Positions 51,001 to 54,000 of a stretch of DNA of 64,000 nucleotides are shown here, piece after piece. The position numbers were made by a program. Source of the stretch: Escherichia coli (GTDB taxonomy: Bacteria > Pseudomonadota > Gammaproteobacteria > Enterobacterales > Enterobacteriaceae); assembly GCF_001677475.2 (NCBI RefSeq), contig NZ_CP012498.1; one strand, written 5' to 3'. Every line of letters starts with the position of its first letter. Position 1 is the stretch's first letter.

Positions 51001-54000
51001 GATTTGTACATGTGCAAATCACCAGAGCACCCGCTAATCTTTGTTTTAAATTAAAATGGGCAGAATATATTCCGCCCGGCTTTGTTATTTTTTTAACATA
51101 GAAAGATTGCGTCTGGTTTGTTCTTCGAAATCATCTTTTGAAGTGATGCTCTCTGATTTGTTTTCTGAAGATGCCCCTATGATGTTTTTTAACACACTTA
51201 TATCAATTGATGTAGATGTGTATCCTGTTGTTTGCTCTATAAGTTTCACCAGATTTTCTGCAGTGATTTTCTCACTGAAAAAACCACTGATTAGCGTTAA
51301 CAGTCGGGGGTCAACAGAATAAAGAGCTGCTCCGCAAATAAGAGATTGTCTGTAGAAGTCTCCCCGCATTTGTATCGGGAGAGAGTCTATTGTTTGTTGT
51401 GTCAGGTTATCCTGCGGATAAAGTGTCGGGTGCAGGTATGCCACAACTTTCTTTCTTTTTTTCGGATCACTGCTTTCCATTACGCATGCACCATTGCTTT
51501 CACCAATGCAAACTGAGGTTCATCCACCTTGTTCACTTTCAGATTCGGGAAATATTGCTTTATGTGAGGGTAAATAAGCTCGGCTCCTCCGCCAGTGAGA
51601 TAGATTCGGTTCATTCCTGAGAATGTTGAAATTTCCTGCCTGATGCTTTCTGCCAGAGATTTCACTTCCCTGTCTATTACATGAGTAATGTTTTTTATTT
51701 CAGCTACATCATTTATTAATGTCTGGAGATATTCATTATCATGTCTGTTTTTTATTAACTCATCAGCAATAAAATAATTACATGGTGTGGAGGCTTTCGT
51801 CAGCGCATTCATGACGGTATGAGTGATGCGGGATGTCCCGATTTCTGAATACCCACGGATTTCAGAAATGCCTTCAAATGCACCGAGAATTAAACCACAA
51901 TCCAGAGTGGTTCCTCCAAGATCGATAATCAGGCTGCGTTCAAGTTTGTTTACTTTATCTTTTTTTAGTGATTCAAATGCAGCTGGCAAAGATTCAGGCA
52001 TTACATTAACTTTTTTAATTTTAAATGTTTCCCCTTTATTCAGAGATATCTCACGGAGAACATTTGCCTTTTTTCTTTCTATTCTTTCTTCATTTGGTTG
52101 ATTGTCATTATCAAAGAATTCGGTTACAGGTAATGTCACTGTCAGTTCTACATCCTGTGGCTGAAGGCCGGATGTCAGCAGTGCATGATGTATGGCAAGC
52201 AAATTGGTGGTGCTGTATTGATAACTGACATGTGTTGTACCTATGACAGCAGTGCTGCCCAAATCATAGGTGTATTTTTTTCCATCCACGACGTAATTGT
52301 AAACTTTGCCGGCATTAAACAGTCCCGGGTTCCAGCCTTCTTTAAAGCTGTTTCCTGACAGACTGGTTCTTACCTCGCCATCTTCAAGCCAGGCCAGTTT
52401 TACGTTAGTTGAACCATCATCGCATGATACTTTTAGCATTTTTTTTCTTGCCTCGTTTTGAGTTTGTGTTTGTCTCAAATTGAGCATCCTTCATATAGAT
52501 GCATCTTTTTGAGTTTTTTGTTGTTCCTTATTGTGTCTCATTTTGGGTTCATGTCAAGCGATGAGGCTCTTTTAGAGTCTCTTTGTGTTCTTGTTGTGAC
52601 TCAGTTTGAGTCTCTATCGATTTCTCATTTTGCGTTACGAACTGAGACGGAAACTACTTAACCAGGCCGTGCCGGCACGTTAACCGCCCGTTTCTTTTCC
52701 GGTAAAGGATGTCGCCGTGCTCCTCTTTTTACTGCGCCGGCTGACGCGGCGCGGCATAAACGCTGCCTGTGGTCAGTGTCCCGCGTCCGGCGGGCACGGG
52801 ACGGGCGCTTTTACCGCTCCCGGCTGGCGTCGGTGACAGTGTACGCCAGCCAGTCGCCCTTTTCTGATGAACGCCCTTCAAGCCGCTTTCGCGGCATAGC
52901 CTTGCCGTCAAAAAGACGACGGCTGCGGTATTCCACGGTCGGCCTGACCCGTTACCGGACGCGGTGAACAGCCCACAGGCAGCGGGGAACGGGCACCACA
53001 GGGGGGCCCTCCCGGTGCCCTCTGTAAGAGAAGGAGTTTTGTATGTCCCGTTTTGTCCTCGGTAACTGCATCGATGTTATGGCCCGTATTCCTGATAACT
53101 CCATTGATTTCATGTCGGGTAGCAGCTGCACATTACTGTGCAGCCGCCCCCTAAGAACCGTACGTGCCAGTTTCCCGGCATACGGCTCAAGCCTTTCAAT
53201 AACTCCACATTAGAGCCGGCTTCATAACAGATATTCCCTGATGTTTTGCAGTGTGATGACATGCCGGATGTAACATGGCCAGATTACCTATGTTATCCAG
53301 TCCCCCTTCGGATTTCGGCACAATGTGTCGAAGTTGCCAGCCTGTTGTGGCGTTCACTGGCAGGTGGCAGACGGGGCACTGACCTCCCTGTCGGAGCCAC
53401 AGATTTCTTAGGCGAGAGTAACCCTGTATGGATTCCAGCATCGTAGCTTTTAGCCGTGCTTCAAAGTACGATTCGTAGCTGGGATCAAAAGGGTTAGCAG
53501 TGCTTTTTATTTGTCTGTGTCTTTTGACTGGCATATCCGAGATTTCATATAGCGCCAGTAACTCACGTTTGCCTGATGGCAGGTATGAGACGACAATAAC
53601 TCAGTCCGCCTGGCGCCGATTATTCTGGCCGGTTTTGTAACCTGAGTGTCATTTACATGATCCAACAGGAAATGGCGTGACGCTCAATACTTCTCAGGTC
53701 AGTTACTATATGACTCAGCGTAAGAAAGGTATAACTCAGCATATCTCGGCCATGAAGGCTGGTATCTCAGTCCGTTCTGGTCGTCGGATCGAAAAAGGAG
53801 AGTGGGCAAAAAACAGTGTTCGGCACTGGCGCACACGCAAAGATCCTCTGGAAGCTGTGTGGGACAGCATGCTTGTTCCTCTGTTGAAAGAGAGGCCGGC
53901 TCTGACACCAACAACTCTACTGGAGATGCTACAGGATAAATATCCCGGCCAGTACCCCAACAGCCTTCGAAGAACAATGCAACGGCGGGTTCGCGAATGG

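What the first reader, a model, noticed from the sequence alone, without database searches (positions are those of the whole stretch)
52690..53040. GC-rich non-coding blocks upstream of leading-region genes, possible single-strand promoter elements
Three GC-rich stretches of about 300-400 bp without convincing ORFs (52690-53040, 60030-60420, 63680-64000) each sit just upstream of, or next to, leading-region-type genes. In conjugative plasmids such positions are known to hold ssDNA-folded promoter/initiation elements (Frpo/ssi type) that drive early expression after transfer. Whether these blocks are such elements is inference only.
Basis: inference. Interest (0 to 1): 0.45.

Follow-up and report, generated by a model that had tools for sequence, protein, structure and literature searches.

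The report
Known single-strand promoters of plasmid leading region

Summary
The three blocks are GC-rich (0.64, 0.64 and 0.70, against 0.45 for the window), have no conserved ORF, and lie in an IncF/IncI-type leading region.

- **Block 1 (52683-53040)** is 98% identical to the DNA directly 5' of the M.EcoGIX methylase gene of pESBL, and 96% identical to the same place in F. This is where Wen et al. 2025 place the "class 3" single-strand promoter, later called ssp3.
- **Block 2 (60030-60440)** is 93% identical to F ssp2 and to the pESBL klcA/ardA "class 2" promoters.
- **Block 3 (63679-64000)** is only the upstream tail of a class 1 Frpo2/ssiD element. The hairpin core lies beyond the window end.

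The blocks are not similar to each other, and block 1 is not similar to classical Frpo.

Alignments of diverged homologues support both hairpins by covariation. G·T pairs far outnumber A·C pairs, so the fold is selected on the minus (transferred) strand.

- Class 2 carries an invariant TTGnnn-15-TAnnnT on its 3' arm.
- For class 3 I infer a -35 split across a three-way junction (TTGA|CC) and a -10 of GACACT.

In this plasmid the methylase gene behind block 1 is broken by an antisense group II intron. Verdict: already known.

The parts
52662..52686 (-). Remnant: one arm of a class-2-like hairpin that in pESBL and F precedes the DUF1281 gene. Here it is fused to block 1 at an AACCG microhomology, and the DUF1281 gene is deleted.
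   Evidence: 100% match to L005 3275-3299, L004 3660-3684 and L001 3999-4023. Fold of the pESBL region. nhmmer class 2 hits at those places in pESBL and F.
52707..52725 (+). Conserved upstream motif GGATGTCGC(N3-5)GCTCC. It is shared by class 2 and class 3 elements. Function unknown.
   Evidence: Exact 13-mer at 52705 and 60082 only. Present on the + strand upstream of hairpins in 15 loci.
52761..52984 (-). Class 3 single-strand promoter hairpin (ssp3 homologue) on the transferred (minus) strand. It has an outer stem plus a three-way junction: branch A 52878-52947, branch B 52803-52876.
   Evidence: 98.1% identical to pESBL and 96.4% to F, directly 5' of the methylase gene. DNA fold -98.6 kcal/mol, z -3.5. 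81 consensus pairs, 20 with compensatory change, 98% paired against 37-46% in slid controls. G·T 122 against A·C 6.
52775..52780 (-). Inferred -10 element GACACT ([G/C]AnnnT in all homologues). A-11 and T-7 are unpaired in an internal loop of the outer stem.
   Evidence: Columns 272-277 of A1 are invariant A, A, C, T. The same [G/C]AnnnT sits 17-19 nt after the CC in 30 loci, including Burkholderiales. Inference, not mapped.
52878..52881 (-). Inferred first half of a split -35 (TTGA). With CC at 52799-52800 it would read TTGACC if branch A stacks coaxially on the outer stem.
   Evidence: TTGA, the GT linker and CC are invariant or nearly so in 18 aligned sequences and in 6 Burkholderiales loci. 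Inference.
52987..53011 (-). Small covarying hairpin between the main hairpin and the ribosome-binding site.
   Evidence: Helix 2 of A1: 4 pairs with compensatory change.
53043..53113 (+). First 24 codons of the M.EcoGIX-type DNA methylase gene. The gene continues at 57930.
   Evidence: Collinear with pESBL 4782-4852, then 4850 onward maps to 57930.
53114..57929 (-). Group II intron inserted antisense in the methylase gene. It is itself interrupted by an IS21-like element (ORFs 53677-55176 and 55173-55928 on the + strand; named from ORF layout only, no homology search run).
   Evidence: Rfam RF00029 at 53114-53190(-) and RF02012 at 57725-57873(-). ORFs. Breakpoints.
60034..60053 (+). Terminator-like hairpin with a T run, ending the upstream operon.
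60084..60103 (+). Second copy of the GGATGTCGC...GCTCC motif.
60171..60401 (-). Class 2 single-strand promoter hairpin (ssp2 homologue) on the transferred strand. -35 TTGCAT at 60208-60213, -10 TAAGAT at 60187-60192, predicted start near A60392.
   Evidence: 93% to F 7346-7755 and pESBL 6961-7370, 92% to the pESBL ardA upstream region, 84% to 'Frpo' 4' of Samuel et al.. Fold -98.9 kcal/mol, z -4.4. 48 pairs, 24 compensatory, 94.4% paired against 32-44% slid. TTG and TAnnnT invariant in 16 sequences.
60441..60866 (+). klcA/ardB-type antirestriction gene (yfgB homologue), driven by the class 2 element.
   Evidence: Annotation of homologous records. ORF list.
61337..63678 (-). Second group II intron, with an intact 555-aa reverse transcriptase ORF (61418-63085). 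Its 5' junction forms the left edge of block 3.
   Evidence: RF00029 at 61337-61413(-) and RF02012 at 63485-63634(-). Junction sequence.
63679..64000 (-). Upstream tail of a class 1 (Frpo2/ssiD-type) element. The promoter hairpin itself starts just beyond base 64000.
   Evidence: 63911-64000 matches F ssiD positions 259-349 at 89%, and 63856-63879 matches the ColIb Frpo3 tail. In L001 and L002 the F Frpo2 construct (97%) begins at the base after the window end. Matches upstream of both F Frpo copies and in pESBL.

Best explanation
The window shows the leading region of an F-like conjugative plasmid. Its genes are on the + strand, so the minus strand is the strand that enters the recipient.

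**Identity of the blocks**
- Block 1 is a copy of the class 3 single-strand promoter (ssp3) that precedes the M.EcoGIX-type ssDNA methylase gene.
- Block 2 is a copy of the class 2 promoter (ssp2) that precedes the klcA/ardB antirestriction gene.
- Block 3 is the distal tail of a class 1 promoter (Frpo2/ssiD) that precedes ssb. Its hairpin lies just outside the window.

**Mechanism (shown in the literature for the 93-98% identical F and pESBL copies; inferred here by homology)**
1. On entry, the single transferred strand folds at each element into a long imperfect hairpin.
2. The 3' arm supplies a non-template strand with -35 and -10 elements. The 5' arm is the template and runs on into the gene.
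3. Host sigma-70 RNA polymerase starts near the base of the stem.
4. Synthesis of the complementary strand irons the hairpin out and switches the promoter off.
5. ssp2 also stalls complementary-strand synthesis until UvrD opens it.

**My own inference from conservation**
- Class 2 uses TTGCAT-15 nt-TAAGAT, with positions -11 to -9 unpaired.
- Class 3 uses a -10 of GACACT with unpaired A-11 and T-7. Its -35, TTGA|CC, is assembled by coaxial stacking across a three-way junction.

In this plasmid the class 3 promoter is intact, but its first gene is destroyed by an antisense group II intron.
For: **Homology and synteny**
- Block 1 is 98.1% identical to pESBL and 96.4% to F. Block 2 is about 93% identical to F and pESBL and 84% to a published Frpo' candidate. 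The block 3 tail is 89% identical to ssiD.
- The region is collinear with pESBL.
- Profile search finds exactly one class 3 and one class 2 copy in the window, both on the minus strand.

**Literature**
- Classes 1-3, 5' RACE start sites, and conservation in F: PMC12672017.
- ssp2 between yffB and yfgB, its roadblock activity, and ssp3: 10.64898/2026.01.09.698686.
- Frpo1/2 are required for early expression: PMC9849209.
- Known sequences: PMC11541004, supplementary file 4.

**Structure**
- Folding energies are about -97 to -99 kcal/mol, with z-scores of -3.5 to -4.5.
- Covariation: 20 and 24 pairs change on both sides, against 0-7 in slid controls; 0 of 500 shuffles reach the observed score.
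- Strand: G·T against A·C at paired positions is 122:6 for class 3 and 23:9 for class 2.

**Promoter elements**
- Invariant TTG...TAnnnT in class 2.
- Invariant CTTGA-A-[branch]-G(T/C)-CC-17..19-[G/C]AnnnT in 24 enterobacterial and 6 Burkholderiales class 3 copies.
- No duplex sigma-70 promoter on the + strand of either block.
Against: - No experiment was done on this sequence. Activity is carried over from close homologues.
- I could not see the figures of Wen et al. That their 'class 3 hairpin 5' of M.EcoGIX' is exactly this 360-nt segment rests on their wording, on the segment being the only non-coding DNA 5' of the gene, and on its being unlike classes 1 and 2.
- The class 3 -10 lacks T at -12, and the split -35 is an inference. 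The class 2 spacer is only 15 nt on the non-template arm.
- Branch A of class 3 is far more conserved than a promoter needs, so it probably has a further role that I have not explained.
- Covariation shows a fold in the minus sense, but it cannot by itself separate ssDNA from an antisense RNA.
- Block 3 contains no promoter hairpin inside the window.
Confidence: 0.85

Rival explanations
1. The blocks act mainly as single-strand initiation (priming) sites or as roadblocks for complementary-strand synthesis, not as promoters for the downstream genes.
For: - Frpo/ssiD was first isolated as a priming signal, and its transcripts prime DNA synthesis.
- ssp2 is a mapped replication roadblock.
- Class 3 branch A holds an invariant GCGAAAGC-type mini-hairpin and other invariant motifs that a promoter does not need.
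Against: [quoted passage not shown]
- Start sites were mapped at all six pESBL elements.
- The two roles are not exclusive. ssp3 is reported to have no roadblock activity.
Confidence: 0.1
2. The conserved minus-sense fold belongs to an antisense RNA or other structured RNA, not to single-stranded DNA.
For: Covariation and the G·T excess only show that the fold is selected in the minus sense. An RNA of that sense would fold in the same way.
Against: - No Rfam family matches. There is only a 22-bit chance-level hit against a gathering score of 138.
- No minus-strand promoter was found in or beside the blocks, apart from the parM promoter further left, which points away.
- The minus strand is physically single-stranded on transfer, and homologues have mapped + sense start sites.
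Confidence: 0.03
3. Block 1 encodes the small 'hypothetical protein' annotated at this place in many plasmid records.
For: PGAP annotates ORFs of 101-103 aa here in F, pESBL and thousands of plasmids.
Against: - The F and pESBL products share only the C-terminal half. A 1-nt indel changes the frame of the rest.
- In the window the start codon region is deleted.
- The translation is Arg/Ala/Pro-rich, as expected from GC-rich non-coding DNA.
- Diverged homologues have many out-of-frame indels.
Confidence: 0.02

Closest known systems
Class 3 ssDNA promoter / ssp3, 5' of M.EcoGIX in pESBL and of the methylase gene in F (Wen et al. 2025, NAR, PMC12672017; preprint 10.64898/2026.01.09.698686)
   Same: Block 1 has the same position, directly 5' of the methylase start codon, and the same orientation. 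It is 98.1% and 96.4% identical. It forms a large minus-strand stem-loop below -75 kcal/mol.
   Different: - Here the DUF1281 gene that normally lies upstream is deleted.
- Here the methylase gene downstream is split by an antisense group II intron.
- I could not compare my inferred -35/-10 and start site with the published figure.
Class 2 ssDNA promoter / ssp2, 5' of klcA and ardA in pESBL and between yffB and yfgB in F; 'Frpo' 4' candidate of Samuel et al. 2024 (PMC11541004)
   Same: Block 2 has the same position and orientation. It is 92-93% identical to the F and pESBL copies and 84% to Frpo' 4. It forms the same long hairpin with TTGCAT and TAAGAT on the 3' arm.
   Different: None of substance. 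Roadblock activity was not testable here.
Class 1: F Frpo1/ssiD, F Frpo2, ColIb-P9 ssi1-3 (Masai & Arai 1997; Bates et al. 1999; Couturier et al. 2023, PMC9849209)
   Same: - Block 3 matches the distal 91 nt of the ssiD clone and the tail of ColIb Frpo3. In close relatives it is followed at once by the Frpo2 hairpin and ssb.
- Blocks 1 and 2 work on the same principle: a hairpin rebuilds a sigma-70 promoter on the transferred strand.
   Different: - Blocks 1 and 2 have no sequence similarity to class 1, and no A/T-rich UP-like tip.
- Block 3 lacks the hairpin core inside the window.

Membership tests
Class 3 ssDNA promoter (ssp3) | [quoted passage not shown] | tested here: met
   Window 52682-53113 is collinear with pESBL 4420-4852, where the methylase ATG is at 4782. 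The same holds in F.
Class 3 ssDNA promoter (ssp3) | Sequence homology to the pESBL/F element | tested here: met
   98.1% over 361 nt to pESBL and 96.4% over 357 nt to F. nhmmer E = 8e-74.
Class 3 ssDNA promoter (ssp3) | Large stem-loop on the transferred strand (the paper's threshold is below -75 kcal/mol) | tested here: met
   -98.6 kcal/mol, z -3.5. Covariation in 18 homologues. G·T:A·C is 122:6, favouring the minus strand.
Class 3 ssDNA promoter (ssp3) | -35 and -10 boxes rebuilt in the hairpin | tested here: inconclusive
   There is an invariant [G/C]AnnnT with unpaired A-11 and T-7, and an invariant split TTGA|CC 17-19 nt upstream. The boxes are my inference and could not be checked against the published figure.
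Class 3 ssDNA promoter (ssp3) | Start site used in transconjugants; active only as ssDNA | not testable with these tools
   Needs 5' RACE or RNA-seq after conjugation.
Class 2 ssDNA promoter (ssp2) | Lies 5' of klcA/ardB (yfgB) or ardA, in the same orientation | tested here: met
   The hairpin at 60171-60401 ends 40 nt before ATG 60441 of the antirestriction gene.
Class 2 ssDNA promoter (ssp2) | Sequence homology to F ssp2 and to the pESBL klcA and ardA elements | tested here: met
   93.0%, 93.0% and 92.4%. nhmmer E = 8e-59.
Class 2 ssDNA promoter (ssp2) | Long hairpin with promoter boxes on the stem | tested here: met
   48 pairs, 24 compensatory. TTG and TAnnnT invariant in 16 of 16 sequences, with a constant spacer of 15 and positions -11 to -9 unpaired.
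Class 2 ssDNA promoter (ssp2) | UvrD-resolved roadblock to complementary-strand synthesis | not testable with these tools
   Reported for F ssp2 only.
Class 1 Frpo/ssiD | Sequence homology to F ssiD/Frpo or ColIb ssi | tested here: not met
   - Block 1: no hit at E < 1e-3.
- Block 2: a hit only to the non-class-1 candidate Frpo' 4.
- Block 3: a hit only to ssiD positions 259-349, the tail.
Class 1 Frpo/ssiD | Hairpin core with an A/T-rich tip, -35 and -10 | tested here: not met
   It is not inside the window. In L001 and L002 the Frpo2 core (97% to the F construct) begins at the base after the position of window base 64000.

The most novel reading that the evidence does not exclude
The class 3 element may be a sigma-70 promoter whose -35 hexamer does not exist in the linear sequence. 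It would be assembled only in the folded single strand, as TTGA from the 3' strand of branch A plus CC from the outer stem, across a three-way junction with a continuous template strand. A 17-19 nt spacer and a pre-melted -10, [G/C]AnnnT, follow.

This layout is conserved from Enterobacterales to Burkholderiales plasmids, upstream of M.EcoGIX- and M.BceJIII-type methylases.

The invariant branch A (GACCGTGGAATA...TATGCCGCGAAAGC) would then sit where an UP element sits and may bind a further factor.

I could not see the published figure, so this may already be the published model, or may differ from it.
Probability: 0.35. Interest if true: 0.5.

Novelty: already known. Interest (0 to 1): 0.3.

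Why it matters
These hairpins are the switches that let a conjugative resistance plasmid express anti-restriction, ssDNA-methylase, SSB and SOS-inhibitor genes within minutes of entry, before it is double-stranded. Recognising them correctly:

- prevents their being annotated as 'hypothetical proteins', as happens in thousands of records;
- marks operon boundaries and the transferred strand;
- shows here a plasmid whose methylase operon has an intact promoter but a broken first gene.

The covariation, strand-asymmetry and cross-order conservation data add independent computational support for the class 2 and class 3 folds. They also give testable positions for the promoter boxes.

Tried and rejected
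- **Direct BLAST of the blocks against the five classical Frpo/ssi sequences and the Samuel et al. candidates.** Block 1 had no hit. Similarity to classical Frpo is therefore not a valid test for it.
- **Pairwise comparison of the three blocks.** They share no similarity apart from a 13-nt motif.
- **Rfam.** The only hit was a 22-bit match to RF02757 'Erse' over block 1, against a gathering score of 138. It did not recur in ten related loci, so I rejected it as chance.
- **An alternative class 3 promoter reading.** The conserved TTGAAG and TA(A/C)A(A/C)T, 29-32 nt apart, would point toward the apical loop of branch B. I rejected it because the 12-nt loop leaves no template for +1 and the linear spacing is wrong.
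- **Other -10 candidates in branch A (TATGCC, TTGACG).** Rejected because the spacing is wrong or they are not conserved.
- **Coding hypothesis for block 1.** Rejected.
- **Duplex sigma-70 promoter scan.** Nothing on the + strand in either block.
- **Retrieval problems.** Accession AP001918 was not held, so I used NC_002483 instead. No supplementary files of Wen et al. are held, so the published start sites could not be compared.
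Full report
**Context.** The right-hand 12 kb of the window is the leading region of an IncF-like conjugative plasmid.

Megablast finds block 1 and its flanks in more than 5000 plasmid records of Escherichia, Salmonella, Klebsiella and Shigella, about 80% of them conjugative. The gene order matches F and the IncI1 plasmid pESBL-EA11: methylase, small ORFs, DUF1380, klcA/ardB-type antirestriction gene, then ssb.

A BLAST of pESBL against the window gives this collinearity:

| Window | pESBL or event |
|---|---|
| 52682-53113 | pESBL 4420-4852 |
| 53114-57929 | 4.8-kb insertion |
| 57930-60908 | pESBL 4850-7838 |
| between 60908 and 60915 | one DUF1380 gene (pESBL 7839-8261) missing |
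| 60915-61176 | pESBL 8262-8523 |
| 63679-63879 | pESBL 8649-8848 |

A second insertion, at 61337-63678, comes from the Rfam hits and junction sequence below.

Both insertions are group II introns on the minus strand (Rfam RF00029 and RF02012; junctions). The first also carries two + strand ORFs that look like an IS21-type pair. I named these from their layout only and ran no homology search on them.

All leading-region genes are on the + strand and point toward where oriT lies in F (traM, traJ and FinP lie to the right in L004). The minus strand is therefore the template and the transferred strand. This agrees with the orientation in which ssiD and the ColIb ssi sequences were deposited.

**Observation.** The three blocks are GC-rich: 0.638, 0.642 and 0.695, against 0.451 for the window (profile).

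They hold no credible gene. PGAP annotates a 101-103 aa 'hypothetical protein' over block 1 in F and pESBL. A 1-nt indel puts its N-terminal half in different frames in the two plasmids, and in the window the start is missing. Diverged homologues have many indels that are not multiples of three.

Block 1 ends at the methylase ATG (53043) and block 2 at the antirestriction ATG (60441).

Block 3 is different. Its left edge is the intron junction at 63678/63679 and its right edge is the window end, so its limits are accidental.

[quoted passage not shown] 2024 and compared them with the window.

- Block 2 matches their candidate 'Frpo' 4' (84% over 333 nt, minus strand).
- Block 3 matches only the last 91 nt of the F ssiD clone (89%) and the tail of ColIb Frpo3.
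- Block 1 matches nothing.

In two close relatives, the F Frpo2 sequence (97%) begins at the base that corresponds to window position 64001. The class 1 hairpin therefore lies just outside the window.

The key literature is more recent. Wen et al. 2025 (PMC12672017) found six induced operons in pESBL. Each is preceded by a large hairpin with a 5' RACE start site. They sorted the hairpins into three classes:

- class 1: Frpo1/2 and ssi1-3;
- class 2: 5' of klcA and ardA;

They state that classes 2 and 3 are conserved in F. A 2026 preprint calls them ssp1a/b, ssp2 and ssp3. It places ssp2 between yffB and yfgB (the ArdB homologue) and shows that ssp2 also stalls complementary-strand synthesis until UvrD resolves it.

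I fetched F (NC_002483) and pESBL (NC_018659) and compared them directly.

- Block 1 is 98.1% identical to pESBL 4420-4780 and 96.4% to F, ending at the methylase start codon.
- Block 2 is 93% identical to F 7346-7755 and to pESBL 6961-7370 (klcA), and 92% to pESBL 13957-14309 (ardA).

The three blocks are unrelated to one another. Profile searches find exactly one class 3 and one class 2 copy in the 64-kb window, both on the minus strand.

**Structure.** Each block folds as single-stranded DNA at about -94 to -99 kcal/mol. Z-scores against dinucleotide shuffles are -3.5 to -4.5. An inverted repeat folds equally well on either strand, so I looked for independent evidence.

A scan of one genome per species with the methylase protein gave 47 loci. 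Their upstream regions gave two alignments:

- class 3: 18 sequences, down to about 74% identity;
- class 2: 16 sequences, with a mean column identity of 55%, including the pESBL ardA and DUF1281 copies and three published candidates.

| Measure | Class 3 | Class 2 |
|---|---|---|
| Consensus pairs (RNAalifold) | 81 | 48 |
| Pairs changed on both sides (counted independently) | 20 | 24 |
| Same, partners slid by 1-3 columns | 0-6 | 4-7 |
| Cells paired | 98.0% | 94.4% |
| Cells paired, slid controls | 37-46% | 32-44% |
| Shuffles reaching the observed covariation score | 0 of 500 | 0 of 500 |
| G·T : A·C at paired positions | 122 : 6 | 23 : 9 |

The counts and controls are, and the G·T and A·C counts. 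The G·T excess shows that the fold is selected in the minus sense, which is the transferred strand.

**Promoter elements (inference).** On a transferred-strand hairpin, the 5' arm runs on into the gene's template. The 3' arm must therefore act as the non-template strand, read from the loop outward.

*Class 2.* The 3' arm carries TTG(CAT), invariant at TTG. A constant 15 nt follows, then TAnnnT, invariant at T-12, A-11 and T-7. Positions -11 to -9 face a 3-nt mismatch. In the window:

- -35 TTGCAT at 60213-60208;
- -10 TAAGAT at 60192-60187;
- predicted start near A60392;
- Shine-Dalgarno sequence GGAGG at 60428-60432.

The template arm has a 5-nt bulge in the spacer (19 nt against 15), which may correct the short spacing.

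*Class 3.* The outer stem has an internal loop holding an invariant [G/C]ACACT(G), with A-11 and T-7 unpaired. No linear -35 precedes it.

The consensus fold is a three-way junction. Branch A closes with ...CTTGA. Branch B follows, then G(T/C), then CC... of the outer stem. The template strand is continuous through the junction.

Coaxial stacking would read TTGA|CC, which is TTGACC and matches TTGACA at 5 of 6 positions. The non-template spacer to the -10 would be 18-19 nt, against 15 on the template arm.

The same string, CTTGA-A-[branch]-G(T/C)-CC-[17-19 nt]-[G/C]AnnnT, is present in all 24 enterobacterial copies tested.

With a spacer of exactly 17, it is also present in six Achromobacter, Bordetella and Paraburkholderia loci. 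Their methylases are only about 60% identical to M.EcoGIX, and their stems have entirely different sequences.

In the window:

- TTGA at 52881-52878;
- CC at 52800-52799;
- GACACT at 52780-52775;
- predicted start near 52977.

I could not check these assignments against the published figures, because no supplements are held.

Branch A (GACCGTGGAATA...TATGCCGCGAAAGC...CTTGAAGGG) is invariant even in Burkholderiales. That is more conservation than a promoter needs, and I have no explanation for it.

**Rivals.**

- *Duplex promoter.* Neither block has a sigma-70-like site on the + strand. A terminator-like hairpin at 60034-60053 ends the upstream operon.
- *Structured RNA.* No Rfam family matches. 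A 22-bit hit to RF02757 is at chance level and did not recur.
- *Coding.* Excluded by frame inconsistency.
- *Priming or roadblock.* Documented for class 1 and for ssp2 respectively. It is an additional function, not an alternative.

**Particulars of this plasmid.**

1. The left end of block 1 (52662-52686) is identical to one arm of a class-2-like hairpin that precedes the DUF1281 gene in pESBL, F and L001. The DUF1281 gene and the rest of that hairpin are deleted at an AACCG microhomology.
2. The methylase gene is cut after codon 24 by an intron on the opposite strand. The intron cannot be spliced from the methylase mRNA, so the class 3 promoter drives a broken first gene.
3. Across species, methylase homologues are preceded by class 3 in about 22 loci and by class 2 in about 15. 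The promoters therefore behave as exchangeable modules.

**Verdict.** Block 3 is only a flank. Overall interest is low to moderate. The split -35 model and the cross-order conservation of class 3 are the only parts that may go beyond the published work.

Noticed in passing
window 53114-57929 and 61337-63678 (minus strand); L002 1740-11445: Two group II introns lie in the leading region. Both have their sense strand on the transferred (minus) strand. A related plasmid (NZ_CP033847) has three copies, all in that orientation, and two of them abut the same class 1 tail sequence as intron 2 here (5' exon ...GCCGAAGGGGCGC|GTGCGAC). The homing site may therefore be tied to the flank of class 1 ssDNA promoters, and insertion may favour the strand that is single-stranded on transfer.
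   Followed up: partly
window 52705-52725, 60082-60103; related 63859-63882; 15 loci: A conserved + strand motif, AAGGATGTCGC(N3-5)GCTCC, sits 36-68 nt upstream of both class 2 and class 3 hairpins, usually just after a terminator. It is found in many species, and a related TGTCGCGCC...GCGCTCC lies in the class 1 tail. Its function is unknown.
   Followed up: partly
window 52878-52947 (branch A of class 3); L039-L042, L046 and L048 near 1327-1401: The branch A core, GACCGTGGAATA...TATGCCGCGAAAGC..CTTGAAGGG, is invariant from Enterobacterales to Achromobacter, Bordetella and Paraburkholderia, while the surrounding stems diverge completely. It contains a GCGAAAGC-type mini-hairpin. This suggests a sequence-specific partner that I have not identified.
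   Followed up: partly
window 52662-52686; L005 3250-3475: pESBL, F and L001 carry a further class-2-like hairpin upstream of the DUF1281 gene (fold -80 kcal/mol, z -5.0; TTGCAT on the 3' arm). It is apparently not counted among the six pESBL promoters. In the window only one arm survives, and the DUF1281 gene is deleted.
   Followed up: partly
loci L006-L052: Homologues of the same methylase gene are preceded by a class 3 hairpin in about 22 loci and by a class 2 hairpin in about 15. Several loci have a second class 3 copy further upstream (L010, L036, L037, L028/L029). The promoter classes are swapped between otherwise homologous operons.
   Followed up: partly
window 60908-60915: The DUF1380 gene that follows the antirestriction gene in pESBL (7843-8265) and F is missing here.
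   Followed up: no
window 52488-52660: An AT-rich region with repeated TTGAGT/TTTGTG units lies upstream of parM (51480-52487, minus strand). A sigma-70-like site (TTGACA-16-CACAAT, 52557-52530, minus strand) is present. This is probably the parC centromere and promoter.
   Followed up: no
L017 and L032 (Streptomyces morookaense assembly), L006, L009 and L031 (Collinsella, Oscillibacter and Oscillospiraceae MAGs): Near-identical enterobacterial plasmid leading-region DNA appears in assemblies labelled as Gram-positive genomes or MAGs. This is most likely contamination or mis-binning.
   Followed up: no
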